In this document: positions 1 to 12,770 of the stretch, one piece after another
How the letters are laid out: every line of letters begins with the position of its first letter
How positions within the stretch are numbered: the first letter of the stretch is position 1
Assembly (NCBI GenBank): GCA_963703575.1
Contig: CAVPEU010000008.1
Coordinates: 193,880-257,879 of the forward strand
Length of the DNA: 64,000 nucleotides
Source of the DNA: an uncultured Chloroflexia bacterium
GTDB taxonomy: Bacteria; Chloroflexota; Limnocylindria; Limnocylindrales; CSP1-4
Reading direction: 5' to 3'
Position numbers and translations under genes: made by a program
The notes under the pieces: model-generated
What the model saw: only the letters and a program-made list of their open reading frames with translations
Databases searched by the model: none
What the model was told of the DNA's origin: nothing

Positions 1-218
1 ATGGATCGATACAGAAAGGGCATATGCCGATATCGGGATGCCGCGATGTCCGCGCGCGGCCGTCCGCCGGGCCCGACCGCGGCGGCGGGATCAGGACGCC
101 GGCGGCAGCGCCGTATCGGTCCCGGGCGCGGACCCGCCGAACGTGGCGTCCACGGCGGCACGCACCTCGACGGGGACGCTCCGCGTGGGCATCTGGGCTC
201 CCTTCTCGTTCGCGGGAC

Positions 219-1937
219 TCAGGTCTTCGGGGTCAGCGGCCATGCGGCGCCCTCCGGGACGTCGGGTACCCGGCTCGTCGGCAGGTGGAGGAACGGGGTC
301 GTGACCGGCAGCACCTGCTGGGTGTGGCAGCGCGCGCAATAGACCGGCTGGTGGCAGTAGGCGCAGGCGGTGTTGCCCTGCGCGCGGATGACGGCCGCGT
401 GGTTCGTGGCCATGGTGTCGTGGTCGACGGTGACCGCACCGGTGGAGTGGCAGTTCACGCAGTAGTCACGGGCGTGGCATTCGCCACACGTCGTGCCGCC
501 CGGATCCAGGCTGGTGGCGACGCTCCGGTGGTTGAACACCCACAGCCTGTCCGAGGTGTGCGTGCTGGGCGGCTGTCCCAGCGGCAGGCTGGCGACCGCG
601 GGTCCGAGCTGCGGGAACGTGTGGCAGGTGTTGCACGTGGAGGGAATCGTCTTGCCGGTCACCGCGCCGTTCTCGACCAGGAAATGGCCGCCGTCGTGGC
701 AGCGGAAGCAGCCGGCGAAGTCCAGGTGCCCCAGGTTGTCCGGGTAGGTGCCGGCCGTGACCTTCATCTCCGGGGTCGCCGTGAGCCGGTACAGGACCTT
801 GATCTGCGCGATGGCCGTGTTGATCTGCGCGGCCTTGGTCTCGTACACGTTCGGGTAGCTCGTCTGGTAGAAGTTGCGGAGGCGGTCGATCGCGCTGTCC
901 GCGGCCGTGAAGTCCGGGTAGCTGTCCCACAGGATCCGCATCCCCTCGCGCTTGATGTACGGCAGGGTCGCGTCGATCGCGCCGGTGGACAGCTCATAGT
1001 CGAGACCCGTGCGCGGGTTCGGGATCCCGTGGCCCGCACGGTTGTGGCAGTCGTAGCAGCTCATCACGCGCATCGGCTCGGCGGCCTTGACGGCGTCGAT
1101 GTCCGGCTGCACGTCCTCGGCCACGGTGATCCTGTCCTGGGAGATGAACTCGTCGATCCCGCCGTCGGTCCGGGTCGCCGCGACGTAGTCGATCGAGGCC
1201 GCGTCCTTGCTCGTGGTGGAGTAGCTCACCTCGCGCAGCACGTGCCAGTGGACACTGCGGCTCACGTCGAAGGCGTCGCCGCCGCCGGGCCGGATCATGA
1301 GGCCCACGAACTGGCGGGTGTTGGTCTCGTCCTCGGAGAACAGGGTCTGGGTCTTGAGGCCCGTCAGGGCGCGCCGGAGCGGATCGTGGCATTTCGCGCA
1401 GGTATCGGAGGCGGCCGGCAGGTCGGCGTGGTCGGGGGGCGGGATCGGCGTCGGATACGTGCCCAGCACCATCTCGACCAGCTGGCGGGTGCCGTTGAGC
1501 TTGGACTTGATCCAGCCGGTGATTCCCGGCTCGACGTGGCACTCGGCGCAGGAGACGTCCTTGTGGGGGCCGGCGGCGTACGCGGCGAGCTCGGGCGCCA
1601 TGGAGTGGCAGCGGCCGCAGAAGTCGGCCGTCTCCGTCCAGTGGATCAGCGAGACGGCCGAGAACGCCGCCACGCCGCCCAGGCCGGCCAGGACGAGGAG
1701 CAGCGCGAACAGGCCGCCCCGCGAGCGGGGGAGCCGCGGCCGGCGCCCGCGCAGGTAGAACGGGGAACGATGGCCCGCGACGGGCGCCTCGGCCGGAGCC
1801 CCTTCGGCCGGAGCCCCTTCGACGGCGGTTGCGGCCGGCGCCGGGGCCGCCTCGCCGCCGGCGTCCGTCCCGCCGCCGGCGTCCATCGACGACGCGGGCC
1901 GGGGCGGCTCGGGGGCGGTCGCCGGGTCGTCCATCAA
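219..1937 (-). CDS. Membrane-anchored decahaem c-type cytochrome, NapC/NirT/NrfH-like N-terminal tetrahaem module plus six further haem sites
   Basis: Ten CxxCH motifs (CGRCH, CAECH, CAKCH, CYDCH, CFRCH, CNTCH, CGECH, CVNCH, CAYCH, CARCH). One N-terminal TM helix directly followed by CxxCH...CxxCH, as in NapC/NirT quinol dehydrogenases. Last gene of a minus-strand operon. Confidence 0.8.
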   Translation of the reverse strand: MMDDPATAPEPPRPASSMDAGGGTDAGGEAAPAPAATAVEGAPAEGAPAEAPVAGHRSPFYLRGRRPRLPRSRGGLFALLLVLAGLGGVAAFSAVSLIHWTETADFCGRCHSMAPELAAYAAGPHKDVSCAECHVEPGITGWIKSKLNGTRQLVEMVLGTYPTPIPPPDHADLPAASDTCAKCHDPLRRALTGLKTQTLFSEDETNTRQFVGLMIRPGGGDAFDVSRSVHWHVLREVSYSTTSKDAASIDYVAATRTDGGIDEFISQDRITVAEDVQPDIDAVKAAEPMRVMSCYDCHNRAGHGIPNPRTGLDYELSTGAIDATLPYIKREGMRILWDSYPDFTAADSAIDRLRNFYQTSYPNVYETKAAQINTAIAQIKVLYRLTATPEMKVTAGTYPDNLGHLDFAGCFRCHDGGHFLVENGAVTGKTIPSTCNTCHTFPQLGPAVASLPLGQPPSTHTSDRLWVFNHRSVATSLDPGGTTCGECHARDYCVNCHSTGAVTVDHDTMATNHAAVIRAQGNTACAYCHQPVYCARCHTQQVLPVTTPFLHLPTSRVPDVPEGAAWPLTPKT

Positions 1938-1941
1938 AGCC

Positions 1942-2538
1942 TCAGGGGATCAGGGCCGCGACCGCGCGGTCCATCTCGTCCCTGGGCAGCGCCCCGATCC
2001 GGATCTCGCGGATCCGGCCGTCGGCGCCGATGAAGAAGTGGGTCGGGATGCCCAGCGTCCGGTACGTGCCGGCGATCGCCGTGTTCTGGTCGACGACGAT
2101 GGGGAACGTCAGGCTGGCCCGCCCCGCGTACCCGGCGACGTCCGATGCGGGCTCGTTGATGAACACGGCCAGCACGACCAGGCCCTGGTCCCTGTACCTC
2201 TGGTAGGTGGCCTCCACGTCGGGCGCCTCGGCCCGGCAGTCCGGGCACCAGGACGCCCCGAACGTCAGCCACATGGGCTTGCCCGCGTAGTCCGCGAGCG
2301 AGACCGTCCTGCCGTCGTAGGTCGTGCCGCTGAAGCCCGGGGGCAGGGCGCCGACCGCCGGGGCGGTGCCTGCCACGTCGCCGGCAAGGTCCACCTTGGT
2401 GAAGCCGCTGGTGTCGGGGCCGCTGACCAGGAAGGCCACGACCCCGATCACGACGGCCGTGACGGCGATCACCACGATCGTCTGCAGCCGCCCAGCCCTG
2501 CGGCCGGAGGGCGGGGCGACGATGCCCGCAGCGCTCAT
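1942..2538 (-). CDS. resA: TlpA/ResA-family thiol-disulfide oxidoreductase (cytochrome c maturation)
   Basis: N-terminal TM anchor and thioredoxin fold with WCPDC active site. Sits directly between ccsA and the cytochrome gene. Confidence 0.8.
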   Translation of the reverse strand: MSAAGIVAPPSGRRAGRLQTIVVIAVTAVVIGVVAFLVSGPDTSGFTKVDLAGDVAGTAPAVGALPPGFSGTTYDGRTVSLADYAGKPMWLTFGASWCPDCRAEAPDVEATYQRYRDQGLVVLAVFINEPASDVAGYAGRASLTFPIVVDQNTAIAGTYRTLGIPTHFFIGADGRIREIRIGALPRDEMDRAVAALIP

Positions 2539-2566
2539 CCGGATCGCTCCCTTCGTCCCCGGGGGG

Positions 2567-3451
2567 TCAACCCAGGCCGGAGTAGCTGTGGAGCCCGCCG
2601 AAGAACAGGTTCCCGAAGTAGGTGAACAGCGTCGCCCCGAACCCGGCCACGAGCAGCCATGAGGCCCCCGACCCGCGCCAGCCGCGGACCACCCGCGCGT
2701 GGAGGTAGGCGCCGTAGATCAGCCACGTCACGAGCGAGGCGGTCTCCTTGGGGTCCCAGCTCCAGTAGCTGCCCCACGCGGTCTCGGCCCAGACCGCGCC
2801 GAGGATGATCGTGAGGGTCAGGAACGGGAACCCGACCACGACCGCGCGATAGCCGATCTCGTCGAGGATCTGCGGCTTGGGCAGGCCCCAGCGGCCACCG
2901 TCGGGCTGGGCCAGGTACAGCAGCGAGGCCGCGAAGGCGATCGAGAAGCTGCCGTAGGCGACGATCGCGACGGCAACGTGGACGGTGAGCAGCAGGTTGT
3001 TCTGCAGGGCGGGGACCAGGGGCTCGATGTCGGCCGGGATGGTCGCCGCGTAGAGCATCATCGCGAGCGCGACGGGCAGCGCCACCAGCGCCAGGAGCCG
3101 CTGGTGGTACGTGCGCTCGAACCACATGTAGGCGGTGAGGATCCCGAACCCGAACGCCATCGAGAACTCGTACATGTTGGCGAACGGGCCGTGGCCGGTG
3201 GCGACGGTGCGGAAGATCATGCTCGCGAGCAGCGCGAACACCGCCAGCCAGCCCAGGATCGTCGCGTAGCGCCCGATCGCGGCCGTGCGCGGGCCGGAGA
3301 TGAAGCCCATCGTGCCGCCGGTGGCCGGCATGCCGGCCGTCTGCAGGCGGGCGGCCCGGAGGCCGGACAGCGCATAGAACAGGTAGGCGATCGTCGCCAG
3401 GCCGGTGCTCAGCATGGCCGCGACGAAGGCGTATTCGGACATCTTTGCCAT
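2567..3451 (-). CDS. ccsA: Cytochrome c biogenesis protein CcsA/ResC (System II haem-handling subunit)
   Basis: Polytopic membrane protein with the tryptophan-rich WGSYWSWDPKE (WWD-like) motif. Confidence 0.85.
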   Translation of the reverse strand: MAKMSEYAFVAAMLSTGLATIAYLFYALSGLRAARLQTAGMPATGGTMGFISGPRTAAIGRYATILGWLAVFALLASMIFRTVATGHGPFANMYEFSMAFGFGILTAYMWFERTYHQRLLALVALPVALAMMLYAATIPADIEPLVPALQNNLLLTVHVAVAIVAYGSFSIAFAASLLYLAQPDGGRWGLPKPQILDEIGYRAVVVGFPFLTLTIILGAVWAETAWGSYWSWDPKETASLVTWLIYGAYLHARVVRGWRGSGASWLLVAGFGATLFTYFGNLFFGGLHSYSGLG

Positions 3452-3465
3452 GTCGTGGTTCTCCC

Positions 3466-5001
3466 TTAGGCCCGCGCGGGCGCCTGGAGCGCCGAGCGGA
3501 TGTCGTTCACGAGGCTCTCGAACTCGGTGCCGAGCGCCGCGTCGCGGCGCCCGAGGCTTGCCACCGCCAGCACCGCCCCACCGTTGGGCCGCGCGGCGAT
3601 CCGCGCCCAGACCCGGCGATGCGGCAGGAAGAAGGTGATGACGAAGCCGGTGAACAGGAGGAATGCGCCCAGCCAGACCAGCACCACGCCGGGATCGCGT
3701 GCGACGTTGAGGCCCGTGAACTTGCTCTCGCGGTCGAACGTGAACGTCAGGCCTGCGGCCGTGGCCGCCGTGCCCTGGTCCAGCACCTGGGTGGCGACCG
3801 GCGTGCTGCCGGTCGATCCGTACAGCTCCACTTGCACCTGGCCGGGCTTGATCTTGGCGTCGCCACTGCCCAGCGTCCCGACGACCCAGGCGACGTAGTC
3901 CGTGCCCGGGATGGCGATCGAGCCGACGGGCCGATCGTCACCGGTCGTGCGCCAGGCCAGCGGCACGCCGTCGGACAGGAGCGTGTTGCCCTTGGCGTCC
4001 TTGACCGTCATCACGGCCGCCGAGCCGAAGAAGGCCTGGTAGAAGCTCGTGTCGCCGTAGCGGAGCGGGTCGTTGACCCGGATCGTGTGGCGCGCGACCT
4101 CGCTGCCGTCCTTGTACAGGACGACCTGGCTCGCGTAGTCCTCGGGGGCGCCGGTGGCCGGGTAGTAGCTGTCCGTGAAGTCGATGAGCTGGAGGCTCAG
4201 CCCCTGCTCGGCCGCGACCGGAAGGGTGCTGCCCTCGGCGATCGTGAAGCTGCTGTCGCGGTAGCCGAAGGTGCTGCCGACGACCGCACCGGCGAGGATC
4301 ACGACCAGCGCGAGGTGGCCGGCCAGCGAAGCGAACGGCGCCCATCGGAAGCGGTCCGCGTACAGGTGGATCGTGCCGTCGTCCAGGCTCGCCGGCCGGT
4401 ACCGGCGACCGCGCAGGACGCCCTGGACGATCTCGAGCGTCTCGGCCGGCGTGTGCCGGACGACGATGGCCTCGTGCTGCGGCGCGTGCTCGAAGAAGGC
4501 CGGCCCGACGTCCACGCGGGGCTTCGTGGCCGTGCGCCACATGCCCGGCACGCGGTGGACGGAGCAGGCGACGAGGCTGATCGTCAGCGCCGCCACCAGC
4601 ACCCGGAAGATCACCGAGTTGAAGATCTGGAACAGCTGGAGCGCGTCGAACAGGCCGCTCACGTTGCTGTACCGCAGGTCGGGCGTCACCGCTCCGATCA
4701 CCGGCAGCGAGTGCAGCCAGCCCACGACCGGGACCGACATCGGCCCGATCTGCTTGAGCCAGCTCGACTTCGCGTCGGGATCGCTCATGACGCCCGGAGC
4801 CGCCTGGATGACCAGGGAGCCGACCAGCCCCAGCACCGCGAGGGCGAGGATGAGGACCATGGCGACCCGCATCGAGGTCAGGAGGTGCCACAGTCCTTCC
4901 AGCGCCCAGTCGACGCGGTCCATCAGGCCGTGGCCGGCCTCCACCGTCGCGGCCTGTGGGACCGTCGGCGGGAGCGGCCGGGTTCGAACTTCGTGGGCCA
5001 T
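3466..5001 (-). CDS. resB: Cytochrome c biogenesis protein ResB/Ccs1
   Basis: About 510 aa with N-terminal TM helices, a large soluble domain and a C-terminal TM segment. Immediately upstream of ccsA, the canonical System II pairing. Confidence 0.8.
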   Translation of the reverse strand: MAHEVRTRPLPPTVPQAATVEAGHGLMDRVDWALEGLWHLLTSMRVAMVLILALAVLGLVGSLVIQAAPGVMSDPDAKSSWLKQIGPMSVPVVGWLHSLPVIGAVTPDLRYSNVSGLFDALQLFQIFNSVIFRVLVAALTISLVACSVHRVPGMWRTATKPRVDVGPAFFEHAPQHEAIVVRHTPAETLEIVQGVLRGRRYRPASLDDGTIHLYADRFRWAPFASLAGHLALVVILAGAVVGSTFGYRDSSFTIAEGSTLPVAAEQGLSLQLIDFTDSYYPATGAPEDYASQVVLYKDGSEVARHTIRVNDPLRYGDTSFYQAFFGSAAVMTVKDAKGNTLLSDGVPLAWRTTGDDRPVGSIAIPGTDYVAWVVGTLGSGDAKIKPGQVQVELYGSTGSTPVATQVLDQGTAATAAGLTFTFDRESKFTGLNVARDPGVVLVWLGAFLLFTGFVITFFLPHRRVWARIAARPNGGAVLAVASLGRRDAALGTEFESLVNDIRSALQAPARA

Positions 5002-5013
5002 TCCGGCGACCTC

Positions 5014-5781
5014 CTACAGGCCGAACGGCGACCCGAGGGTCGCCAGCCGGCCGAGCGTGTTGGTGAGCATCAGCACGCCGACGGTCACGAGCAGCAGGCC
5101 CGTGACCATGGACACGGCATGGTTGTGGCGGCCGACCCAGGACAGCCGTCGGGAGACCCAGGAGGCGCCCAGGGCAACCGCCAGGAACGGGACCGCGAGA
5201 CCGGCCGCGTAGGCGACCAGGAGGACCGTCCCCTGGAGGACGCTCGCGGTCGCGGTGGCCAGCCCGAGGATCCCGCCCAGGATCGGGCCGATGCATGGGC
5301 TCCAGCCCGCCGCGAACAGCGTCCCGAACGCGAGCGAGCGCCCGTAGCCCGGTCTGCCGTTGCCGCCCGCGAGGGTGGCGACCGCGGAGCCCCCGTTGCC
5401 GCCGGCCATCACGAGCCCGCCGGCCATGGTGGGCATCAGGCGGGTGTCGCGCCACAGCGCCCGGACGTTTATCAGGCCCGCGACCTGGAGGCCGAGGAAC
5501 ACGAGGAGCGCGCCGCCGGCCATGTTCATCGTGCGCCGGTCGAGCACCAGGCCGATCGCGCCGACGGCGGCGTAGAAGGCGACGAACACCAGCGAGAAGC
5601 CGAGCACGAACGCGAGCCCGTGGAAGAAGGCGGTGCGGCGGCCGGCGGTGCCCTCGCCGGTCGCGCCGACCATGTAGCTGATGTACGCCGGCACGAGCGG
5701 GAGGCAGCACGGGGACGCGAACGACACCACGCCGCCGGTGAAGGCGATCGCGAGGCCGAGCGCGCTGCCCAGGTCCGTCAT
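5014..5781 (-). CDS. ccdA: Cytochrome c-type biogenesis protein CcdA (DsbD-like membrane thiol-disulfide transporter)
   Basis: Six-TM protein with paired Cys motifs (SPCCLPLVP, WSPCIGP). The real start is the internal MTDLGS methionine; the 5' extension of the reported ORF overlaps the upstream TPR gene in another frame. The start ATG overlaps that gene's stop (ATGA). Confidence 0.8.
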   Translation of the reverse strand: MTDLGSALGLAIAFTGGVVSFASPCCLPLVPAYISYMVGATGEGTAGRRTAFFHGLAFVLGFSLVFVAFYAAVGAIGLVLDRRTMNMAGGALLVFLGLQVAGLINVRALWRDTRLMPTMAGGLVMAGGNGGSAVATLAGGNGRPGYGRSLAFGTLFAAGWSPCIGPILGGILGLATATASVLQGTVLLVAYAAGLAVPFLAVALGASWVSRRLSWVGRHNHAVSMVTGLLLVTVGVLMLTNTLGRLATLGSPFGL

Positions 5782-6566
5782 GGCTGGGTGCTTGCCGCCG
5801 GGGAGGCCACGGGAGAGGGCGCCGGGCTGGCGGCGGGGGACGCGGCCGGCGAGGCTGCGCCCGACGGGGCACCCGACGCGTCCGGCAGCATCGAGGCGGC
5901 GGCCAGCGAGTCGAGGTGCGACTGTACGGTCTTCGCGAGCTGGGATGTCGGGTCGAGCGCGATGACCTTGTTCCACTCGCGCTGGACACCGGCCCAGTCG
6001 GGGGTCTGCTGGTTCAGGTACAGGAAGCCGAGATCGTAGTGCACCTCGACGTTCTTGGGCTCGATGGCGACGACCTGCTGCCAGGTCTTCTCGGCCGACG
6101 TCAGGTCGCCGAGATTGAAGCTCACGGCGCCCCGGGCGAGGAGCGCCTGGATGTTTTTCGGGTCGATCGCGAGCGCCTTGTCCAGCCACTGGCCGGCGAC
6201 GTTGTACTGGGTGCCGGCGTAGTACTCGTCCGCGAGGGCGAGCAGGGTGGCGGTGTCGTTCGGGTTGGCCGCGAGCTTCTCCATCAGGCCCGCGACCTTG
6301 GCCTCGTCGATCGTCGGGGCAGAGGGTGACGCCTGGGCGGCGACGGCGTTCGTCCCCGTCGCACCGCCGCCGCCGAGCGTGAAGGCGGCGAAGGCGATCC
6401 CGAGCACGACCGCGATGGCCGCCCCGCCCAGGACGATCTTCTTCCACGGACCGCCGTCCCGCGCCCGGGAGGCGGGTTCCGGGGCGACGGCTCCGGCGAG
6501 CGGCTTCGCCCGGTGCGCCCGCTCCTTCGCGTCGGACCGCATGTCCCGGTGCGCGCTGGGGGTCAC
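5778..6566 (-). CDS. Membrane-anchored TPR-repeat protein (CcmH/NrfG-like cytochrome maturation accessory)
   Basis: Single TM helix (KKIVLGGAAIAVVLGIAFAAF), TPR-like repeats and a Pro/Ala/Ser-rich C-terminal tail. First gene of the ccs operon. Confidence 0.6.
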   Translation of the reverse strand: MTPSAHRDMRSDAKERAHRAKPLAGAVAPEPASRARDGGPWKKIVLGGAAIAVVLGIAFAAFTLGGGGATGTNAVAAQASPSAPTIDEAKVAGLMEKLAANPNDTATLLALADEYYAGTQYNVAGQWLDKALAIDPKNIQALLARGAVSFNLGDLTSAEKTWQQVVAIEPKNVEVHYDLGFLYLNQQTPDWAGVQREWNKVIALDPTSQLAKTVQSHLDSLAAASMLPDASGAPSGAASPAASPAASPAPSPVASPAASTQP

Positions 6567-6594
6567 GGACGCGTAGAGCGCCTCCAGGTCGTCG

Positions 6595-7062
6595 TCATCG
6601 GGCTCGAGGGCTCGGCTCGGTCTCGGACTCGAGCTTGGTCTCGGGCTCGGCCCCCGTCTCGGGAGCGTCAGCCACGGCCGCGGCCGTGGCTGCGACGAGC
6701 TCGTTCGGGCGCGCAGGTGCCGCTGGAAGGATGTCCCGGCGGGCCGGAGGTGTCGCCGGCCCGCCGGGATCGACCCTCGGCGGCCTCGTCGGGCTCCTGA
6801 GGGCTGAGCCCCCGAGGCCGACTGGGTCGGTCAATTGGAGATACGCCGCATCGAGCGCCGCCGCCTGGGCGTGGGCCCAGCCGCGGATGCTCGAGGGCGC
6901 CGCCGCGAGGTACTCGCTCACGGCTTCGTGGGTGGTGTCGACGTCTTCGGGCGCGGCGCTGGGCGGCAGCCCGAGTCGCGCGAGCAGCTCGTTCTCCGCT
7001 GCGGCGCGGCCGCTGGGGGGCAGGGTGGGCGCGGTCATCCGCGGGATTCCCCGGGGACGCAC
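6595..7062 (-). CDS. Hypothetical low-complexity protein
   Basis: ORF only, Ala/Pro-rich, no recognisable domain. Positioned upstream of the ccs operon on the same strand. Confidence 0.25.
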   Translation of the reverse strand: MRPRGIPRMTAPTLPPSGRAAAENELLARLGLPPSAAPEDVDTTHEAVSEYLAAAPSSIRGWAHAQAAALDAAYLQLTDPVGLGGSALRSPTRPPRVDPGGPATPPARRDILPAAPARPNELVAATAAAVADAPETGAEPETKLESETEPSPRAR

Positions 7063-7292
7063 GCGACGAGGTCGCGCACCGGCTGGCGTTTCATCGTGGA
7101 GCCCTCATTCCGTGCCGCGGGGGACCGCGGCGTGACACCTGAGGGCATTGTCCGGAACGGGCACCCCTGCGCCCATCCGTCGGGACGCACATTTCGGCCG
7201 GGACCGGGCAGGGCTGTTGGGGGGAGAGAATTGAGACCCCCTGTATCGGTCGGTACAGGGGGTGGTCCGGCGGGCCCGCAAGGATCAGGGCG

Positions 7293-8366
7293 TCACGGGG
7301 CGAGGACCGCCGCGCCGTCGTGGCCGACGCCGTGGCAGGTGAGCGTGCAGGTGCCGGTCGTGGCGTCGTAGGCGATCGGCAACCCGTTGTACTGCACCAC
7401 GTCCGGCGCGAACTTCACCAGGCCGCGGGTGTCGCCGCTGGTCCCGTGGAGGTTGGAGTGGCACTCCGCGCACAGGGCGTTCCCCTCGCCGCCACCAGGA
7501 ACGTCGATGTCGGTGCCGCCGCTGCCGTAGGCGCCGATGCTCTGCAGGTGGAAGCCGTGCTTCGGGAAGTTGGTCCCGGTCGAAGTCCCCGTCGTGTCCT
7601 CGATGGCGGCCTGCTGCGCACCCGAGTGGCAGCTGTAGCAGAGGCCGAAGTCGGCGGCGCGGTAGGCCTCCCCGCTGAGTCGCAGTGGGCTCGCCCGGTA
7701 CACGCTGGACAGCAGGTACGGGTTCGACGCACGGTGCGAGGCGTGACATGAGGCGCAGACGTCGCTGGTCAGGCCGCTGACGATGTGCGGTGATGTCGGG
7801 TCCACGTTGGCGGACAGGCCGAGCAGCATCGGCCCTGCCAGGGCCTCGGGTGATGGTGATGCGCCCTGGGCGGCCGGAGCGACGCTCGACGATGGATCCG
7901 GGGATCCCGACGACGGCGCGGAGGACGGCTGGTCCACGATCGCGCCCGGGTCCGGCGAGGGCGACGGATCCACGACCGGCGAGGGCGACGGATCCACGAC
8001 CGGCGACGGCGACGGATCCACGACCGGCGACGGCGACGGATCCACGACCGGCGACGGCGACGGATCCACGACCGGCGACGGCGACGGATCCACGACCGGC
8101 GACGGGGAGTCCGAAGCCGTCGGTTCGGGGGCCGGCGAGGGGGAGTCCGTCGGGCTCGCCACCGGCGACGTCGCCGAGGGATCCGGTGTCGGATCGGTGG
8201 CCGACACAGCCGGCACCGCAGGCGCGAACGTCGCGAGAGCGGCAGCCGCCACCAGCCACACTCCGAAGAGCGGGCCTGCGCGGCGGGTGATCCCTGCGTT
8301 CACGTTCGTGGGACGTCCTCTGGTGTGTGGGTTCGGACGGATCTCCCGGCTGGAGGCGTCCCCCAC
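7293..8366 (-). CDS. Secreted tetrahaem c-type cytochrome with Pro/Ser-rich (VDPSPSP)n linker
   Basis: Signal-peptide-like N-terminus (RRAGPLFGVWLVAAAALATFAPAVPAVSA) and a long PS-rich linker with six perfect VDPSPSP repeats. C-terminal domain has CASCH, CYSCH, CAECH and CTLTCH (CxxxCH). Confidence 0.7.
   Translation of the reverse strand: MGDASSREIRPNPHTRGRPTNVNAGITRRAGPLFGVWLVAAAALATFAPAVPAVSATDPTPDPSATSPVASPTDSPSPAPEPTASDSPSPVVDPSPSPVVDPSPSPVVDPSPSPVVDPSPSPVVDPSPSPVVDPSPSPDPGAIVDQPSSAPSSGSPDPSSSVAPAAQGASPSPEALAGPMLLGLSANVDPTSPHIVSGLTSDVCASCHASHRASNPYLLSSVYRASPLRLSGEAYRAADFGLCYSCHSGAQQAAIEDTTGTSTGTNFPKHGFHLQSIGAYGSGGTDIDVPGGGEGNALCAECHSNLHGTSGDTRGLVKFAPDVVQYNGLPIAYDATTGTCTLTCHGVGHDGAAVLAP
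7955..8101. repeat. Tandem repeat, 21 bp x 7, in-frame within the cytochrome gene
   Basis: Direct reading: ggcga(c/g)ggcgacggatccacgacc repeated head-to-tail; encodes the VDPSPSP linker. Confidence 0.9.
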
Positions 8367-8434
8367 CCGGGGGCTCGCTCCTGGCGGTCCGGAGGTGAAC
8401 CGGGACCGCCAGGAAGCCTGTTCTCAGTGGCTGG

Positions 8435-9833
8435 CTAGTTGCCGGGGGTCGGCAGGGGGCCGAGGTACGTGCCGGACGTCACGGTGCCCGTCGGGTCGTG
8501 GCAGAGCTGGCAGGTCCCACGGTTGTTGACCTTGAGCAGGCGGCTGTCGCTGGACACGACGCCGCTCGGGTCCTTGTACGTACTTGAGTTCGAGCCCGTC
8601 ATCAGCGCGTTCGAGCCGTGCTGGACATGGCACTGCTCGCAGCCGACGCGGGTCGTCCCGTGCTTGATCATGAACGTCGTGTCCGCGGAGTTGGCCGCGA
8701 GCGACGACGCCGTGAGGCTCTGGGTCGGGGCGGTTCCGGTGACCGTGCTGACGCCGTCGTACCGGGTGTGGCACTGGACGCACCACGCGGTCATCAGGCC
8801 GCCCTTGTTGCTCAGGCTGGACTGGGCGACCGGCAGTGGCAGGGCCGCCCCGGAGATCGGGTCGGTCGTCTTGCCGGCCGTCGCCAGGTCAGCGTTGTAC
8901 TGCGCGATCTCGGTGGTGTTGACCGGATACCGGAACGAGTACTGGAGGCCGTTGGCGTTGGTGTAGGTCTGGGTCTTGCTGATCCAGCCCGTGTTCATCG
9001 GGTCAGCGGGCGGGAGCGCGGCGCTGGTGGTCCAGGCCAGCGTGACCCCGGTCGGATCCCACTTGTAGCGCCAGTAGTCGCCATCGTGTTGCCCACGACG
9101 CCGGACGCCAGCCCGTCGGTGCTGGGCCGGATCGTGTAGTTGCGGAGGCCGGTGTACGCGGTGTCCTGGACCTGCACGCCACCGCTGTTGGTGACCTTGT
9201 AGGTCCCCGCCGTCGCCGTCAGGCTCGGAGCGGTCTGGAGGATCCGGTACTGCCCGTTCCCGTGCGGGTTGTGGCAGTTCGCGCACTCGAGGTCGACCGT
9301 CGCGCCGACGCCGCTGTTGACGGCGCCGTTGCCCCAGACCGTGCCGGTCCCGGCATGGGTCGAGGTCACCGGCTGACCCGGTGGGTGCCGGGGAGCGGCT
9401 GGACGTGGCCGATATTCCGGACGTGACCGCCGATCGTGTACGAGAGCCGCGCCGGGTTGGCGGAGTCGATCAGCGCGTAGCTGAAGCCGCCGCCCCGGAG
9501 TGCGCCCAGGACGGCGCCGGTGGCGCTCGCCGGGTCGTACTGCACGCCATGGACGACGTCGGCCGTCGCCTTGGTGCCGTTGTGGCAGTCCAGGCACAGG
9601 TTCGGCAGATCGTTCTTGAGCAGGCCCTCGGCCGTCGCCGTATGCGCTCTGTGGCATCCCGCACACGTGTCGGCGGTCAGCCCTGGGGTCCCGGTTCCGT
9701 TGTTGATGGCCATCTGGTGTGGACCACCGTCAGCGAGCACCGGCAGCGCGGCAACGAACAGCCAGAGGGCGCCGCCTGCAAAGAGGAGGGCGAATTTCCT
9801 CACTGTCATTACCTCAAGACGTGGCATGGATAG
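8435..9833 (-). pseudogene. Hexahaem c-type cytochrome gene broken by two frame changes (pseudogene or sequencing frameshifts)
   Basis: Three overlapping minus-strand ORFs (9366..9893, 8995..9666, 8435..9286) each carry CxxCH sites (CAGCH, CLDCH / CANCHNPH / CVQCH, CEQCH, CQLCH). The first has a signal peptide (MTVRKFALLFAGGALWLFVAALPVLA). Frames switch near 9375 and near 9085. Confidence 0.5.
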
Positions 9834-9894
9834 GATCGCCTGCGCTGCAGGCGTCATCGTTGTCCGCGGCTCCACCTCCCTCACTCCGTGCATG

Positions 9895-10956
9895 TCAGTA
9901 GCTCCAGACCTGGAGCCGGTCGTTGCCCCAGTCGGCGACGTAGACTCGGCCTCGGCCGTCGACGGCGATGCCGTTCGGAAATGCCATGAATCCGTCGTCG
10001 CTGCCCTTCAGGCCGAAGGCGTTGAGATACGTTGGACCCCGGTCGCCGGCGGCCATCGGGGCGTAGGCCTGAATCCGCGAGGCGCTCGAGTCAGCCACCA
10101 GGATGTGCCCGTGATCGTCGATCGCGACCCCCACCGGCAGGCCGAGATTGCCGGCTGCCTCGCCGCGCTCCACGATCCCGACCTTGGTCCCCGAGGCGTC
10201 GTACACCAGCAGCCGGCCGTTGGCCGTGTCGGTGACGTACACGTTCCCGCTGCCGTCCACGACGATCCCGTTGGGGTGGTCGAGGGAGTCACCGGCGCCG
10301 ATGTCGCGGAGCAGCTTGCCGTCGGGCGAGAACTCGTGGATCCGCTGGCTGCCGCCCCCGACGTCCGCGATGTAGACGTCGCCCTGCTGGTCGAACCCGA
10401 TCCCCAGCGGCTGCCAGCCGGCAAGGGCCGCACCCTGGTCGAAGACCCGCACGAAGGTGCCGTCGGCGGCGTAGATGAACACGCCGGAGTCGTAGCGGTC
10501 CGTCGTCCACACCTCGCCGGTGACCGGGTTCACCGCCAGGTACAGCTGGTGGGCCTGGGCGAGCTTCGTCGCAGGCGGCTTGAGCACGCCAAGCGTCGCA
10601 CCCTGCCGGTCCAGCATCAGCGTGTCCAGGGACGAGCCGTTCTGGGTCACGTAGATCCGCGACCCGTCGGAGCTGACGGCCACGCCCTGTGGCTTCGAGA
10701 GGTCGTACAGCGCGTACTGGTAGGTGGGCATGGCCACCGGGCCGATCGGCACCGGCAGCTCGGTGATCGGCTTGCGGAACAGCAGGTACCAGATCGACAG
10801 GGACAGGAAGACCAGCAGCAGCAGGAACAGGAACAGCAGCAACCACTTTCGGCGCCGGGCGTCCTCGCGCTCCTCGGCCGGCGGGGCCGGCTGCCCGGGG
10901 GCGTCCGGCTGGTCCGCGCCCGGACTCGGCTCGCCCGGCAGAGCGCCCAGCGTCAT
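9895..10956 (-). CDS. Membrane-anchored NHL-repeat (six-bladed beta-propeller) protein
   Basis: TM helix (WLLLFLFLLLLVFLSLSIWYLLF) followed by repeated motifs of NHL repeats (GVAVSSDGSRIYV, GDVYIAD, NGIVVDGSGNVYVTD, GVAIDDHGHILVAD, NGIAVDGRGRVYVAD). Start taken at the internal MTLGALPG. Confidence 0.7.
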   Translation of the reverse strand: MTLGALPGEPSPGADQPDAPGQPAPPAEEREDARRRKWLLLFLFLLLLVFLSLSIWYLLFRKPITELPVPIGPVAMPTYQYALYDLSKPQGVAVSSDGSRIYVTQNGSSLDTLMLDRQGATLGVLKPPATKLAQAHQLYLAVNPVTGEVWTTDRYDSGVFIYAADGTFVRVFDQGAALAGWQPLGIGFDQQGDVYIADVGGGSQRIHEFSPDGKLLRDIGAGDSLDHPNGIVVDGSGNVYVTDTANGRLLVYDASGTKVGIVERGEAAGNLGLPVGVAIDDHGHILVADSSASRIQAYAPMAAGDRGPTYLNAFGLKGSDDGFMAFPNGIAVDGRGRVYVADWGNDRLQVWSY

Positions 10957-10972
10957 GTCAGGGGAGTCCACC

Positions 10973-11956
10973 TCAGTTGCTCCCTTCCGCGCTCGGGGAC
11001 GGGACCACCGAGGGCACGGACGAGGCCGCCGCGTCGATGGCGCTGAGGCCGATCTGCGCCGACGCGTTGGCCGGATCGATGGCGAGCACCTGGCGGAAGT
11101 AGCTCGTGGCCGAAGTGTTGTCACCCTGCTGGGCCGCGATGAACCCGAGGCCGAGGAGGGCCTCGGACTTCATGGCGCCGGCGGTCAGCGGCCTGAGTGC
11201 GGCTGCCGCCTCATTCAGCCGCCCCTCGCAGAAGGCGGCCATGCCGGTCGCCCACGTGACGCCGTCCGGTTCGTGGAGGGCCGTATATGCCTCGGCGAGC
11301 TTCTGATACGGATCAGGCCAGCCTGTGGGCACGTAGGCGATGGCCAGGCGGAGCGCCGCGACGGCCTTGGTCGGGTCGCCCACCTTGATCTGCGCCGCGC
11401 CGAGCGAGTACAGCGCGTCGGCGTCGCCGGCGTCGATGGCGAGGGCCTTCTCAAGGCTCGTGACGGCGCCTGCTGCCTTGTCCTGTTGCAGCAGAACGGT
11501 CCCGAGCCAGTAGTACGCCTGCTCCAGCTGCGGGTCCGTGTCCGCGAACTCCCCCTTGCTGGCGGCGTCGATGAACTTCTGGAGGTCCGGGACCGCCAGG
11601 TCGGCCTGTCCGGACTGGACGTAGGCGATCGCTCGCCCGAGCAGCGCGGCCCGATCCCCTGCGTCGATCTTGAGCACCTCGGTGAACTGCGCGATCCCAT
11701 CCTCGAAGCGCTTCGCCGTGACGTAGGCCGCCGCGAGATGGTCGCGAGCCGCGATGTCGTTGGGGTTGGCCTGGACGGCCGCCTCCGCGGCGGTGACCGT
11801 GCGATCAGCGAAGGACGCGCCCGGATCGACGTGGCGGTCGTTCCAGTAGACGAGCACCATGGCCGGGATCCCGACGACGAGCGCGAGCCCGCAGATCAGG
11901 ATCAGCCGGTTCAGTGTTCGGTTCGAGATGGTCGTGGGACGAGCGACTCTCATCAT
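10973..11956 (-). CDS. Membrane-anchored TPR-repeat protein
   Basis: N-terminal TM helix (LILICGLALVVGIPAMVLVYW) followed by several TPR-like helical repeats. Start taken at MMRVARP. Confidence 0.6.
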   Translation of the reverse strand: MMRVARPTTISNRTLNRLILICGLALVVGIPAMVLVYWNDRHVDPGASFADRTVTAAEAAVQANPNDIAARDHLAAAYVTAKRFEDGIAQFTEVLKIDAGDRAALLGRAIAYVQSGQADLAVPDLQKFIDAASKGEFADTDPQLEQAYYWLGTVLLQQDKAAGAVTSLEKALAIDAGDADALYSLGAAQIKVGDPTKAVAALRLAIAYVPTGWPDPYQKLAEAYTALHEPDGVTWATGMAAFCEGRLNEAAAALRPLTAGAMKSEALLGLGFIAAQQGDNTSATSYFRQVLAIDPANASAQIGLSAIDAAASSVPSVVPSPSAEGSN

Positions 11957-12179
11957 GTGCGCTTCCTTGAGGCGGACGCCAGCGGGCGCGAACGCAGGCC
12001 ATCGGCGGACGCTGACGAACCTGAGCCCGGCTCCATGAGCAATCCTCGCCCGCGCAGGCGCGCGTTCCCATCCGTCAGGGGATAGAACTGCGATACAGGG
12101 CGGGGCGAGGACGCACCGGCGAGGCTGTATCGAGTGGCCCACGAAGGTCCCGTGGGACCGGGCCGGATGTCCTGTCGCG

Positions 12180-12704
12180 CTAGCTGCCCAGGCTCTGGCG
12201 AGGCGTCCGGAAGTCGCCGGGGACGTCCAGCTCGATCACGTGGCCCACTTCGCGCAGCGGGAAGCGGTCGAGGGGCCGGGGCGGCGGTCCGGCGAGGACG
12301 GTCCCGTCGAGCGCGAACGAGCCCTCGTGGCAGTAGCACCCGAAGCGGTGGTCGGCGGCCTCCCAACGGTAGGCGCACAGGGCGTGCGTGCAGCGCGGGT
12401 CGAAGGCGGTGACCTCGCCGCTGGCCTTCCTGACCAGCCAGGCCGAAGCATCCACGGAGCTGCCGCCCGACGCGAGCGTGAACTCGACCCTGGTCGGCGC
12501 GCCGACGACGAGCGTCGAGGGATCGAAGTCGACGGTGACGGTGACCGGCGGGGCGCTGCAGGCCTCGAGCAGCACGCCCAGGCCCCCGCCGCCGGCAAGC
12601 GCGCCGGCGCCCATCAGCAGCAGGACGCGGCGTCGCGGCAGCGGCGTCTCGCGGGGGTCAAAGGCCGGTTCGGGACAGTCGGGTCGGTGGTGGGCGTTTG
12701 CCAT
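12180..12704 (-). CDS. Rieske [2Fe-2S] iron-sulfur protein with Tat-type signal
   Basis: Twin-arginine-like N-terminus (PRRRVLLLMGAGALAGG). Rieske cluster boxes CTHALC and CYCHEGSF. No cytochrome b gene adjacent. Confidence 0.75.
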   Translation of the reverse strand: MANAHHRPDCPEPAFDPRETPLPRRRVLLLMGAGALAGGGGLGVLLEACSAPPVTVTVDFDPSTLVVGAPTRVEFTLASGGSSVDASAWLVRKASGEVTAFDPRCTHALCAYRWEAADHRFGCYCHEGSFALDGTVLAGPPPRPLDRFPLREVGHVIELDVPGDFRTPRQSLGS

Positions 12705-12770
12705 CGGGAAGAGCCTGGCAAAGGCGGGGGCTGTGGCCGCGGGGCCTGTGGGCTCCGGTTCGGTCTCCCC

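What the first reader, a model, noticed from the sequence alone, without database searches (positions are those of the whole stretch)
219..12704. Candidate extracellular electron-transfer/respiratory module: three multihaem cytochromes, orphan Rieske protein, NHL propeller and TPR anchors, with dedicated System II cytochrome c maturation genes
Twelve consecutive minus-strand genes encode, in order: a Tat-signal Rieske protein; a TM-anchored TPR protein; a TM-anchored NHL six-bladed propeller; a signal-peptide hexahaem cytochrome (frameshifted); a secreted tetrahaem cytochrome with a long Pro/Ser linker; then TPR-CcdA-ResB-CcsA-ResA; and finally a NapC/NirT-type decahaem membrane cytochrome. 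The arrangement suggests an electron path from a membrane quinol-oxidising haem module, through periplasmic/wall multihaem relays, to a linker-tethered surface cytochrome. A beta-propeller and a Rieske centre are attached, and there is no cytochrome b or bc1. This combination is not a described complex (not alternative complex III, Nrf, Nap or hydroxylamine-oxidoreductase layouts). The adjacent Sec-dependent formate dehydrogenase could be the electron donor.
Basis: partly seen in the sequence, partly recalled or inferred. Interest (0 to 1): 0.8.

Follow-up and report, generated by a model that had tools for sequence, protein, structure and literature searches.

The report
Conserved multihaem cytochrome respiratory gene cluster
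This is a real gene cluster shared by a whole class of uncultured soil and freshwater Chloroflexota (Limnocylindria): it combines many-haem cytochromes, their maturation machinery and scaffold proteins, it resembles known cell-surface electron-transfer clusters, and the cytochrome b complex reported as missing almost certainly lies just off the edge of the window.

Summary
The genes are there as described, and the arrangement is not chance. The order Tat-Rieske, TPR, NHL, multihaem cytochromes, TPR, CcdA-ResB-CcsA-ResA, decahaem recurs in about 50 species-level Limnocylindria genomes.

- **"No cytochrome b" is a window-edge artefact.** An 89%-identical relative and 20 other genomes carry Rieske + cytochrome b + a second decahaem directly after the decahaem gene. 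Window bases 1-26 carry the conserved element that precedes that operon.
- **The upstream Rieske is a Tat lipoprotein** of the PetC3 kind.
- **There are three frameshifts, not one.** Two are in the hexahaem gene. One is a 7-bp insertion that splits the TPR gene; a 99.65%-identical contig lacks it.
- **The formate dehydrogenase is an unlikely direct donor.** It is a cytoplasmic, selenocysteine, NAD-linked type. A conserved two-component system separates it from the cluster.
- **The combination has precedents.** A quinol-oxidising NapC/NirT cytochrome with secreted multihaem cytochromes, NHL and TPR proteins (and CcsBA) is described in Thermincola, Dethiobacter and the Tenderiales Uet cluster.

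Best reading: an envelope electron-transfer network wired to the quinone pool. This is a new variant of a known kind. Its function is untested.

The parts
1..26 (-). Conserved AT-rich element (ATGCCCTTTCTGTATCGATCCAT). In relatives it lies 110-260 nt upstream of the Rieske gene of the Rieske/cytochrome b/decahaem operon. It marks the start of the part of the cluster that the window cuts off.
   Evidence: 0 mismatches in the window, L058 and L055. At most 8 mismatches in 18 of 20 loci that have the bc operon, and at least 9 in all 30 loci that lack it. It is the only match in the 64-kb window.
219..1937 (-). Membrane-anchored decahaem cytochrome c. It has an NrfH/NapC/NirT-like N-terminal quinol-dehydrogenase module, a haem-poor central domain and six further haems.
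   Evidence: 10 CxxCH, all invariant in 68 homologues; NrfH-type CxxCHxM at haem 1. PF03264 at 39 bits. NrfH 2j7a at E 3e-6, and 3e-10 with a profile. TM helix at residues 72-100. No NCBIfam equivalog reaches its cut-off.
1942..2538 (-). ResA-type membrane-anchored thiol-disulfide oxidoreductase (WCPDC)
   Evidence: AhpC-TSA and Redoxin domains; TM helix at residues 15-44
2567..3451 (-). CcsA/ResC haem-handling protein of System II
   Evidence: PF01578 at 157 bits; WGSYWSWD motif
3466..5001 (-). ResB/CcsB of System II
   Evidence: PF05140 at 243 bits. Exactly the same protein is encoded on the Logan contig L056.
5014..5781 (-). CcdA thiol-reductant transporter
   Evidence: PF02683; conserved Cys in SPCC and SPC motifs
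5778..7038 (-). One gene in relatives: a cytoplasmic N-terminal domain, a TM helix, an external TPR domain weakly like CcmH/CycH, and a Pro/Ser tail. Here a 7-bp insertion at 6609-6615 splits it into two ORFs.
   Evidence: It is a single 417-aa gene in L056 (99.65% nt identity), 449 aa in L001 and 516 aa in L043. TPR Pfam hits.
7293..8366 (-). Secreted cytochrome: signal peptide, about 110-aa Pro/Ser linker, then a tetrahaem domain (3 CxxCH plus a conserved CT[LM][TV]CH)
   Evidence: Relatives carry an extra domain of about 250 aa, and up to 8 haem motifs in L043.
8435..9812 (-). Secreted hexahaem cytochrome (Paired_CXXCH family), interrupted by two 1-nt frameshifts at about 9378-9390 and about 9085-9095
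   Evidence: The gene lies in three frames. It is one intact ORF with 6 CxxCH in L009, L010, L012 and L043. There are 1063 database homologues; the best is 82% identical and intact.
9895..10956 (-). TM-anchored NHL beta-propeller protein
   Evidence: PF01436 NHL at 110 bits. TM helix at residues 35-64. An ortholog lies just upstream of the first multihaem gene in 43 related loci.
10973..11953 (-). TM-anchored TPR protein
   Evidence: Multiple TPR families; TM helix at residues 13-38; conserved in L003, L009, L010, L012, L013 and L043
12180..12704 (-). Tat-exported Rieske [2Fe-2S] lipoprotein of the b6f/bc type. It has both cluster boxes and the disulfide cysteines (CTHALC...CYCH). It resembles PetC3.
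   Evidence: PF00355. PDB hits 9rk3 at 1.5e-11 and 5cxm at 1.2e-10. The RRR motif and the L-L-[EAD]-[AG]-C lipobox are kept in 25 of 25 orthologs.
12771..13205 (-). Conserved 144-aa receiver-like protein of unknown function, always between the regulator and the Rieske gene
   Evidence: tblastn hits in 22 loci at the same position. No Pfam hit. Weak MctR-like hit.
13533..14387 (-). NarL/LuxR-type response regulator
   Evidence: Response_reg and GerE domains. NarL at 199 bits, below its cut-off. 80-88% identical at the same position in relatives.
14179..15990 (-). GAF + HisKA_3 + HATPase sensor kinase
   Evidence: conserved upstream in L013, L022, L025, L004 and others

Best explanation
The region is the larger part of a respiratory gene cluster conserved across the class Limnocylindria (Chloroflexota).

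**Shown**
- The cluster encodes about 20 c-type haem sites in three extracytoplasmic cytochromes.
- The System II machinery that attaches those haems sits in the middle. It forms a tightly packed unit, TPR-ccdA-resB-ccsA-resA-decahaem, with gaps of 4-28 nt.
- There are two single-pass membrane scaffold proteins (TPR and NHL propeller) and a Tat-exported Rieske lipoprotein.
- A two-component system lies upstream.
- In close relatives, a Rieske/cytochrome b complex with its own decahaem cytochrome lies immediately downstream.

**Inferred mechanism**
- The decahaem is anchored by one helix and keeps the NrfH-type haem-1 motif. It takes electrons from menaquinol at the membrane surface.
- Its six extra haems hand the electrons to the secreted hexahaem cytochrome and the linker-bearing tetrahaem cytochrome.
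- The membrane-anchored NHL and TPR proteins hold or assemble these in the envelope.
- The adjacent Rieske/cytochrome b/decahaem complex is a second, energy-conserving link between the same quinone pool and the same cytochrome network.
- The Rieske lipoprotein is an extra one-electron carrier at the membrane surface.
- The GAF kinase/NarL pair switches the set on in response to a redox or oxygen-related signal.

The end of the chain is not known. It may be an outside acceptor such as Fe(III) or humics, an outside donor such as Fe(II), or periplasmic oxidases and reductases. The layout is closest to the Thermincola-type wall-crossing pathway of single-membrane bacteria.

In this particular assembly the secreted branch carries three frameshifts. 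It is either mis-assembled or inactive in this strain.
For: - Gene identities.
- Synteny in 54 related loci: ResA followed by the decahaem in 51 of 51, NHL in 43, upstream Rieske in 26, and the kinase/regulator/144-aa gene upstream.
- bc operon: L058 at 89% nt identity; intact Rieske + 362-aa cytochrome b + 520-aa decahaem in L009, L012, L018 and L028; promoter-region element at window 1-26.
- Quinol module: NrfH similarity and an invariant CxxCHxM. Distant relatives of the first ~370 residues (33-43% identity) occur in Actinomycetes, Baltobacteraceae and Anaerolineae. One Anaerolineae protein is annotated as an octahaem tetrathionate-reductase family member.
- Export signals and TM anchors.
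- Published analogues: Thermincola ImdcA/PdcA/CwcA/OcwA, Dethiobacter clusters, Uet cluster, D. ferrophilus NHL proteins.
Against: - There is no expression, localisation or activity data for any of these proteins.
- The organism is uncultured, and its envelope type is assumed from other Chloroflexota.
- The cluster is present class-wide, including in lake genomes. That fits a core respiratory role as well as a specialised extracellular one.
- The hexahaem and tetrahaem proteins have no detectable relative among solved structures. Homology to Thermincola or Geobacter surface cytochromes is therefore not shown.
- Rieske centres of this type are usually high-potential, which fits poorly with classical low-potential Fe(III)-reducing chains.
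- The bc operon is absent at this site in 30 of 50 loci, so it is not obligatory.
- Three frameshifts in this copy.
Confidence: 0.6

Rival explanations
1. Housekeeping reading. The cluster is simply the lineage's complex III region plus its general cytochrome c maturation genes. The multihaem proteins are ordinary periplasm-side carriers that pass electrons from quinol oxidation to terminal oxidases or N-oxide reductases. Nothing leaves the cell.
For: - Class-wide conservation, with very high conservation of the decahaem (60-77% identity, all haem ligands invariant).
- System II is the normal maturation system of these bacteria, and only one ResB locus was found in 47 of about 50 genomes.
- A bc-type complex is adjacent.
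- The b6f-type Rieske carries the disulfide cysteines.
- The surrounding genes in the window are core metabolism.
Against: - The number and size of the secreted cytochromes vary strongly between genomes, from 1 to 4 genes and 4-8 haems, with Pro/Ser/Thr linkers and extra domains. That is typical of surface-exposed rather than core components.
- Membrane-anchored NHL and TPR partners are a hallmark of published extracellular electron-transfer clusters.
- No oxidase or reductase gene lies in or beside the cluster.
Confidence: 0.25
2. Decay reading. In this strain the secreted branch (the hexahaem gene and the TPR gene ahead of ccdA) is being lost. Only the maturation genes and the decahaem remain functional, so the module as drawn does not operate here.
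For: - Three frameshifts lie within 6.6-9.4 kb, while every other gene tested in the 64-kb window has full-length domain coverage.
- The 7-bp insertion is absent from a 99.65%-identical independent contig.
- No called protein for the hexahaem fragments appears in the database, as expected if the depositor's annotation marked it as a pseudogene.
Against: - Related long-read genomes of this class are full of frameshifts, for example L005, L046, L047 and L054.
- One of the shifts is consistent with the loss of one G from a G run.
- GC3 stays at 0.87-0.96 in all three hexahaem fragments, so any inactivation is recent.
- The TPR part keeps an in-frame GTG start.
Confidence: 0.25
3. This is a self-contained new complex, built around an orphan Rieske protein and a propeller with no cytochrome b, and fed by the neighbouring formate dehydrogenase.
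For: No cytochrome b gene lies within the 64-kb window. The Rieske gene at 12180-12704 has no cytochrome b neighbour in any locus.
Against: - The window ends 218 nt after the decahaem stop codon, inside the conserved upstream region of the bc operon.
- The formate dehydrogenase is cytoplasmic and NAD-linked. A conserved regulator pair separates it from the cluster.
- Its catalytic subunit is split and scattered over 7 kb.
Confidence: 0.05
4. Enzyme reading. The hexahaem and tetrahaem cytochromes plus the propeller form a catalytic multihaem enzyme for a nitrogen or sulfur compound, with the Rieske lipoprotein as its redox partner.
For: - Propeller-plus-haem enzymes exist, for example hydrazine synthase (own knowledge).
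- A distant relative of the decahaem module belongs to a protein annotated as octahaem tetrathionate-reductase family.
- The best Rieske matches include chains whose depositor names ('Similar to Rieske...') I take, from memory of that naming style, to be anammox proteins; their source organism was not checked.
Against: - There is no match to any catalytic multihaem family: NrfA, HAO, OTR and MccA are absent from the Pfam, NCBIfam and PDB searches.
- Conserved histidines suffice for bis-His ligation of most haems.
- The propeller is a separate membrane-anchored protein.
Confidence: 0.05

Closest known systems
Thermincola potens / T. ferriacetica wall-crossing pathway (ImdcA, PdcA, CwcA, OcwA) and the similar Dethiobacter and Carboxydothermus clusters
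   Same: - A membrane-anchored decahaem proposed to oxidise menaquinol.
- A secreted hexahaem cytochrome of about 400-450 aa.
- A further outer cytochrome.
- NHL- and TPR-repeat genes in the same clusters.
- A host presumed to have a single membrane.
   Different: - No detectable sequence or fold relationship to OcwA or OmcS-type proteins.
- This cluster also carries two Rieske proteins, an adjacent cytochrome b complex with its own decahaem, the System II genes and a two-component system.
- The host is a Chloroflexota class with no known metal respiration.
Uet (undecahaem electron transfer) cluster of Tenderiales and Gallionella
   Same: Multihaem cytochromes, NHL-repeat proteins, CcsA/CcsB and an NrfG-like TPR protein in one conserved block.
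   Different: - Uet has a beta-barrel porin, trihaem c7-type cytochromes, a cupredoxin, a peptidyl-prolyl isomerase and Bat proteins, in a two-membrane host.
- None of those genes is in the window.
- There is no Rieske or cytochrome b in Uet.
NrfH / CymA / NapC-NirT quinol dehydrogenases
   Same: - An N-terminal helix followed directly by the first haem motif.
- The CxxCHxM motif.
- Pfam PF03264 above its cut-off.
- The NrfH structure 2j7a aligns over residues 62-198.
   Different: - 572 aa and ten haems instead of four or five.
- The fourth haem motif is displaced by an insert of about 110 aa.
- A confidently modelled central domain (residues 235-400) has no structural match.
- Scores are below every NCBIfam equivalog cut-off.
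Rieske/cytochrome b complexes with multihaem c subunits (anammox R/b complexes from own knowledge; the PetAB plus multihaem cluster of RBG-1)
   Same: In relatives: a TM-anchored Rieske, a fused 362-aa cytochrome b and a membrane-anchored decahaem cytochrome in one operon, next to further multihaem genes.
   Different: - That operon is not inside the window.
- It is a presence/absence module, found in 20 of 50 loci.
- Its cytochrome subunit has ten haems and a C-terminal anchor.
PetC3-type Rieske lipoproteins of cyanobacteria
   Same: A Tat motif plus a lipobox cysteine, a small b6f-type Rieske domain, and no cytochrome b neighbour. 5cxm matches at E 1.2e-10.
   Different: - Only the cluster-binding core aligns.
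- The genomic partners here are multihaem cytochromes.
- The role of PetC3 itself is poorly understood.

Membership tests
NapC/NirT (NrfH/CymA) quinol dehydrogenase family | N-terminal TM helix immediately followed by the first CxxCH; Pfam PF03264 above its gathering score | tested here: met
   TM helix at 72-100; CGRCH at 107-111. PF03264 at 39 bits against 24.1.
NapC/NirT (NrfH/CymA) quinol dehydrogenase family | NrfH-type CxxCHxM haem-1 motif | tested here: met
   CGRCHSM; M113 is invariant in 68 homologues and aligns with CTSCHIM of 2j7a.
NapC/NirT (NrfH/CymA) quinol dehydrogenase family | Compact tetra- or pentahaem protein of about 140-390 aa that reaches a curated equivalog score | tested here: not met
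   Ten haems in 572 aa. NrfH scores 50 against 134, TorC 33 against 478, NapC/NirT 25 against 311.
NapC/NirT (NrfH/CymA) quinol dehydrogenase family | Quinol oxidation activity | not testable with these tools
   Needs the purified protein.
System II cytochrome c maturation (ResB/CcsB, ResC/CcsA, CcdA, ResA) | All four components with their motifs (WWD, CxxC, CcdA cysteines) | tested here: met
   PF05140 at 243 bits, PF01578 at 157 bits, PF02683, and Redoxin with WCPDC.
System II cytochrome c maturation (ResB/CcsB, ResC/CcsA, CcdA, ResA) | Dedicated to this cluster, meaning a second general system exists elsewhere in the genome | not testable with these tools
   Whole genomes were not available. 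One ResB locus was found per genome in 47 of about 50 genomes, by a search biased towards close relatives.
Rieske/cytochrome b (bc1/b6f-type) complex | Rieske protein with CxH...CxxH boxes and the disulfide cysteines | tested here: met
   CTHALC...CYCH. Best PDB matches are b6f/bc Rieske proteins.
Rieske/cytochrome b (bc1/b6f-type) complex | Cytochrome b gene in the same unit | tested here: inconclusive
   None in the window. It is present directly after the decahaem in L058 and 20 other loci, and the window ends inside the conserved upstream element.
Rieske/cytochrome b (bc1/b6f-type) complex | Rieske subunit anchored by an N-terminal TM helix | tested here: not met
   The window's Rieske has a Tat signal ending in a lipobox cysteine in 25 of 25 orthologs. 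It shares only 35% identity over 43 residues with the bc-operon Rieske.
PetC3-type Rieske lipoproteins | Tat motif, lipobox, small b6f-type Rieske domain, no cytochrome b partner gene | tested here: met
Single-membrane (Gram-positive type) extracellular electron-transfer clusters | Quinol-oxidising membrane multihaem cytochrome, secreted multihaem cytochromes and NHL/TPR proteins in one cluster | tested here: met
   The pattern is described.
Single-membrane (Gram-positive type) extracellular electron-transfer clusters | Homology of the secreted cytochromes to OcwA, CwcA/OmcS or Smh/OmhA proteins | tested here: inconclusive
   No PDB sequence, profile or fold match. The models were of low confidence (pLDDT 56), and the unsolved family members could not be compared.
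Single-membrane (Gram-positive type) extracellular electron-transfer clusters | Demonstrated reduction or oxidation of an extracellular substrate | not testable with these tools
   The lineage is uncultured.
Uet cluster (Tenderiales) | Multihaem cytochromes with NHL proteins, CcsA/CcsB and an NrfG-like TPR protein in one block | tested here: met
Uet cluster (Tenderiales) | Beta-barrel porin, trihaem c7 cytochromes, undecahaem cytochrome | tested here: not met
   Every coding stretch in 219-12704 is accounted for. None is a porin, a trihaem or an undecahaem protein.
Alternative complex III | ActB molybdopterin-like/FeS subunit and ActC/ActF membrane subunits with a pentahaem ActA | tested here: not met
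   No such genes in the cluster.
OmcS-type cytochrome filaments | Hexahaem subunit of about 400 aa with an OmcS-like fold and inter-subunit histidine ligation | tested here: inconclusive
   Haem count and size fit (6 haems, about 430 aa mature). No sequence or fold similarity was detectable, and the model was poor.

The most novel reading that the evidence does not exclude
Limnocylindria, an abundant uncultured class in soils and lakes, may carry a class-wide, energy-conserving electron conduit across a single-membrane envelope. In it, a Rieske/cytochrome b complex and an NrfH-like decahaem both feed a chain of secreted cytochromes. The roughly 430-aa hexahaem might polymerise through the wall like OmcS/CwcA, with the NHL and TPR proteins as assembly factors. 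These bacteria could then respire, or take electrons from, minerals and humic matter under control of a redox-sensing two-component system.
Probability: 0.2. Interest if true: 0.8.

Novelty: new variant of a known kind. Interest (0 to 1): 0.5.

Why it matters
Limnocylindria (Ellin6529) are common in soils, sediments and lakes, but have no cultured representative and no described respiratory peculiarities. The papers found that mention the class together with multihaem cytochromes or extracellular electron transfer do not describe this cluster.

A cluster kept in about 50 species-level genomes joins several parts:
- two decahaem cytochromes;
- secreted multihaem cytochromes;
- a Rieske lipoprotein;
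- a cytochrome b complex;
- the haem-attachment machinery.

This suggests the class handles electrons outside the cytoplasmic membrane in a way not yet studied. If the pathway reaches the cell surface, it would add a major soil lineage to the organisms that exchange electrons with minerals and humics. It would also give a second, independent example of wall-crossing electron transfer in single-membrane bacteria.

The decahaem's N-terminal module belongs to a large uncharacterised branch of NapC/NirT proteins: 392 clusters at 50% identity with E ≤ 1e-30. Members are found in Actinomycetes, Eremiobacterota (Baltobacteraceae) and Anaerolineae.

Tried and rejected
- **Finding the source contig.** Exact look-ups of the decahaem, ResA and NHL proteins found nothing. 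The ResB look-up and cluster members gave near-identical short contigs instead: L056, L057 and L058.
- **AlphaFold2 of the decahaem.** pLDDT 59.7. Only the NrfH-like start matched anything in the PDB. The confident central domain matched nothing.
- **AlphaFold2 of an intact hexahaem homologue.** pLDDT 56.3. No fold match. Profile searches of the PDB were also empty. The OmcS-like filament idea could be neither supported nor excluded.
- **Promoter and terminator scan of 1-16200.** Nothing above the shuffled background.
- **NCBIfam.** No cluster-specific protein reached a curated cut-off.
- **A ≥90%-identical intact copy of the hexahaem gene, to settle the frameshifts.** None exists in the protein database; the best is 82%.
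- **Considered and rejected.** Alternative complex III, Nrf, Nap and hydroxylamine-oxidoreductase layouts: no matching catalytic or membrane subunits. A porin-cytochrome conduit: no beta-barrel gene. A periplasmic formate dehydrogenase as direct donor: the enzyme is of the cytoplasmic type.
- **Corrected count.** An early notebook entry gave the upstream-element statistics as 23 of 24. The correct figures are 18 of 20 loci with the bc operon and 0 of 30 without it.

Full report
**What is in the sequence**

The window is about 72% G+C, so raw ORF lists are full of spurious frames. Third-position GC singles out one coding frame throughout 219-12704, all on the minus strand. Translation and Pfam give these genes, in the direction of transcription:

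| Coordinates | Product |
|---|---|
| 12704-12180 | Rieske protein |
| 11953-10973 | TM-anchored TPR protein |
| 10956-9895 | TM-anchored NHL propeller |
| 9812-8435 | Hexahaem cytochrome, in three frames |
| 8366-7293 | Cytochrome with signal peptide, about 110-aa Pro/Ser linker and a tetrahaem domain (3 CxxCH plus CTLTCH) |
| 7038-5778 | TPR gene |
| 5781-5014 | CcdA |
| 5001-3466 | ResB |
| 3451-2567 | CcsA |
| 2538-1942 | ResA |
| 1937-219 | 572-aa decahaem whose N-terminus matches NapC/NirT/NrfH |

Hydropathy confirms the single anchors and signal sequences.

**Corrections to the description**

- The hexahaem gene has two separate 1-nt shifts. One lies in a stretch with short C and G runs near 9378-9390, and its simplest repair restores one G to a G run. 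The other lies near 9085-9095, where relatives read ...GTSGDYW.
- In L009, L010, L012 and L043 the gene is one intact ORF with six CxxCH.
- ORF 6595-7062 and the TPR ORF 5778-6566 are a single gene in relatives (449 aa in L001, 516 aa in L043). They are also a single gene in an independent contig that is 99.65% identical to the window (L056, 417 aa). The window has seven extra bases (CCGAGCC) at 6609-6615.
- All three frameshifts fall within 6.6-9.4 kb. Twenty other genes of the window show full-length domain matches.
- Either this stretch is locally mis-assembled or the secreted branch is inactivated in this strain. No ≥90%-identical intact hexahaem exists in the database to decide between these.

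**Origin and conservation**

- The decahaem has more than 1,700 database relatives. The named ones are Candidatus Limnocylindrales or Chloroflexota MAGs.
- A scan of one genome per species with ResB returned 53 loci, all from this lineage.
- tblastn and a local HMM search over these loci and L001 show one syntenic block: Rieske, TPR, NHL, one to four multihaem genes, TPR, CcdA, ResB, CcsA, ResA, decahaem.
- ResA is followed by the decahaem in all 51 loci that reach that far. An NHL ORF lies just before the first multihaem gene in 43 loci. The upstream Rieske is seen in 26; in the others the 10-kb flank ends inside an enlarged multihaem region.
- The block continues upstream. A 144-aa receiver-like protein (12771-13205), a NarL-type regulator (80-88% identical) and a GAF/HisKA_3 kinase keep the same positions in relatives.
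- The multihaem part is the variable part. Relatives add a domain of about 250 aa and up to four more haems to the tetrahaem protein, or add whole genes.

**The "missing" cytochrome b**

- In L001 the decahaem is followed by Rieske, cytochrome b and two "unknown" ORFs. In unbroken assemblies these two are one 520-aa decahaem cytochrome with an N-terminal signal and a C-terminal anchor.
- Twenty of the 50 genome loci that carry the decahaem gene have this operon 0.25-1.0 kb after it.
- L058 is 89% identical in DNA to window 231-5320. It runs ResB, CcsA, ResA, decahaem, Rieske (157 aa), cytochrome b (362 aa), then a further multihaem gene cut by the contig end.
- An AT-rich element, ATGCCCTTTCTGTATCGATCCAT, lies 110-260 nt upstream of that Rieske gene. 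It is found with at most 8 mismatches in 18 of the 20 loci with the operon. It has at least 9 mismatches in all 30 loci without it. In random 500-nt segments, 189 of 195 had at least 9 mismatches and 6 had 6-8.
- The last bases of the window (positions 1-26, minus strand) carry the element without a mismatch. It occurs nowhere else in the 64 kb.
- The window therefore stops about 100 nt short of a Rieske/cytochrome b/decahaem operon.
- In L043 the operon is absent, and the genes that follow it in L001 abut the decahaem directly. It is therefore a presence/absence module.

**The individual parts**

- *Decahaem.* All ten CxxCH and eleven further histidines are invariant in 68 homologues, as is the methionine of CxxCHxM at haem 1. 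That is the NrfH-type motif, in which, in the D. vulgaris NrfH structure, the methionine rather than the histidine ligates haem 1 (own knowledge). A profile search gives NrfH at E 3e-10 over residues 62-198. The rest has no solved relative, and no curated family cut-off is reached.
- *Distribution of the decahaem module.* In a library of 50%-identity representatives, 392 clusters match at E ≤ 1e-30. Most align over residues ~70-445. Named examples come from Actinomycetes, Candidatus Baltobacteraceae and Anaerolineae. The Anaerolineae example is a 1,429-aa protein annotated as octahaem tetrathionate-reductase family. This fits a quinol-oxidising entry module that serves different downstream haem proteins.
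- *Upstream Rieske.* It has both cluster boxes and the two disulfide cysteines. Its best structural relatives are small b6f-type Rieske proteins, including 5cxm. The twin-arginine motif is followed by a lipobox-like L-L-[EAD]-[AG]-C in 25 of 25 orthologs. This matches PetC3, a Rieske lipoprotein on the outer face of the cyanobacterial inner membrane. It is only distantly related to the bc-operon Rieske.
- *Hexahaem and tetrahaem proteins.* They belong to the Paired_CXXCH and MtrC-domain-like families. They have no relative among solved structures.

**The neighbours**

The formate dehydrogenase is real and uses selenocysteine. There is a TGA at 23159-23161 in the context CNRT*HAPSVAGL, and SelD, SelA and SelB genes are next door.

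Its best structural relatives are cytoplasmic enzymes: FdhF, and the F420- and NAD-linked types. It sits with a NuoE/F-like fusion. Its N-terminal iron-sulfur part is a separate gene 4 kb away. It can feed the quinone pool only indirectly. The conserved kinase/regulator pair separates it from the cluster.

**Mechanism**

*Shown:* the composition, topology signals, conservation and adjacency.

*Inferred:*
- Menaquinol is oxidised by the decahaem.
- Electrons pass to the secreted hexahaem and tetrahaem proteins, which the NHL and TPR anchors hold or assemble.
- The neighbouring Rieske/cytochrome b/decahaem complex provides an energy-conserving parallel entry or exit.
- The Rieske lipoprotein acts as an added carrier.
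- The GAF/NarL system controls expression.

The scheme mirrors the Thermincola model: a membrane decahaem, a periplasmic decahaem, an OmcS-like wall hexahaem and a surface cytochrome. It also mirrors clusters in Dethiobacter that combine CymA-like, secreted multihaem, NHL and TPR genes.

The Uet cluster of Tenderiales even includes CcsA/CcsB and an NrfG-like TPR protein. An Mtr-type cluster with PetAB was described in RBG-1 and read as iron oxidation.

The direction of flow and the terminal partner remain open. A b6f-type Rieske argues for relatively high potentials. That would suit electron uptake or delivery to oxidases at least as well as Fe(III) reduction.

**Verdict**

It is an envelope multihaem electron-transfer module of a recognised kind. 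It is not a cytochrome-b-less novelty, and it is not fed directly by the formate dehydrogenase.
- It is a new variant: a new lineage, a new association with a Rieske lipoprotein, two decahaems and a bc complex, and class-wide conservation.
- No paper in the searchable library describes it.
- Interest is moderate (0.5). It would rise if surface exposure or polymerising cytochromes were shown.

Noticed in passing
window 1-26 (minus strand); L058 5270-5295; L015 14940; L016 15371; L028 14966: An AT-rich 23-nt element (ATGCCCTTTCTGTATCGATCCAT) in a 72% GC genome. It is conserved 110-260 nt upstream of the Rieske/cytochrome b operon across the class. It is probably a promoter or regulator site; its binding factor is unknown.
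   Followed up: partly
window 16154-17197, 17194-19227, 21497-23419: The formate dehydrogenase catalytic subunit is split. Its 2Fe-2S/4Fe-4S/Mo-Fe4S4 N-terminal part is a separate gene after a NuoE/F-like fusion. The molybdopterin part, with an in-frame TGA selenocysteine at 23159-23161, lies 4 kb upstream. A Na/Ca exchanger gene and a plus-strand PIN-domain gene lie between them.
   Followed up: partly
window 23764-24819, 26221-27657, 27666-29609: A complete selenocysteine toolkit (SelD-like, SelA, SelB) sits next to the selenocysteine formate dehydrogenase. No tRNA-Sec search was run.
   Followed up: no
window 6609-6615, 7046, 7069: Against the 99.65%-identical Logan contig L056, the window has a 7-bp insertion in a GAGCC-type repeat and two compensating 1-nt indels just upstream of the TPR gene start, alongside only 7 substitutions in 4.6 kb. 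That is an unusually high indel share.
   Followed up: partly
window 12771-13205: A 144-aa protein with no Pfam family and a receiver-like N-terminus. It is conserved in 22 related loci between the NarL-type regulator and the Rieske gene.
   Followed up: partly
window 14179-14387: The kinase ORF and the longest regulator ORF overlap by about 200 nt in different frames. The same overlap appears in L013. The true regulator start was not resolved.
   Followed up: no
L043 7664-9211: In a complete Limnocylindria chromosome, the TPR protein ahead of ccdA carries a C-terminal cupredoxin (amicyanin-like) domain. This hints that copper proteins join the same network in some members.
   Followed up: partly
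window 7293-7400; L003, L009, L010, L012, L043 orthologs: The last haem motif of the tetrahaem domain is an unusual CxxxCH (CTLTCH, or CTMVCH in L043). It is conserved in all the orthologs inspected.
   Followed up: partly
L045 67-4955 versus 7011-14642; L008/L030 and L040/L042: One genome has an inverted partial duplicate of the cluster (ResB, CcdA, TPR and multihaem genes). Two MAGs each yield two separate copies of the whole block. These may be paralogous clusters or strain mixtures.
   Followed up: no
P0302 (1,429 aa, Anaerolineae MAG): A distant relative of the decahaem's N-terminal ~430 residues forms the C-terminal part of a protein annotated as octahaem tetrathionate-reductase family. 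This may be a natural fusion of the quinol module with a catalytic multihaem enzyme.
   Followed up: no
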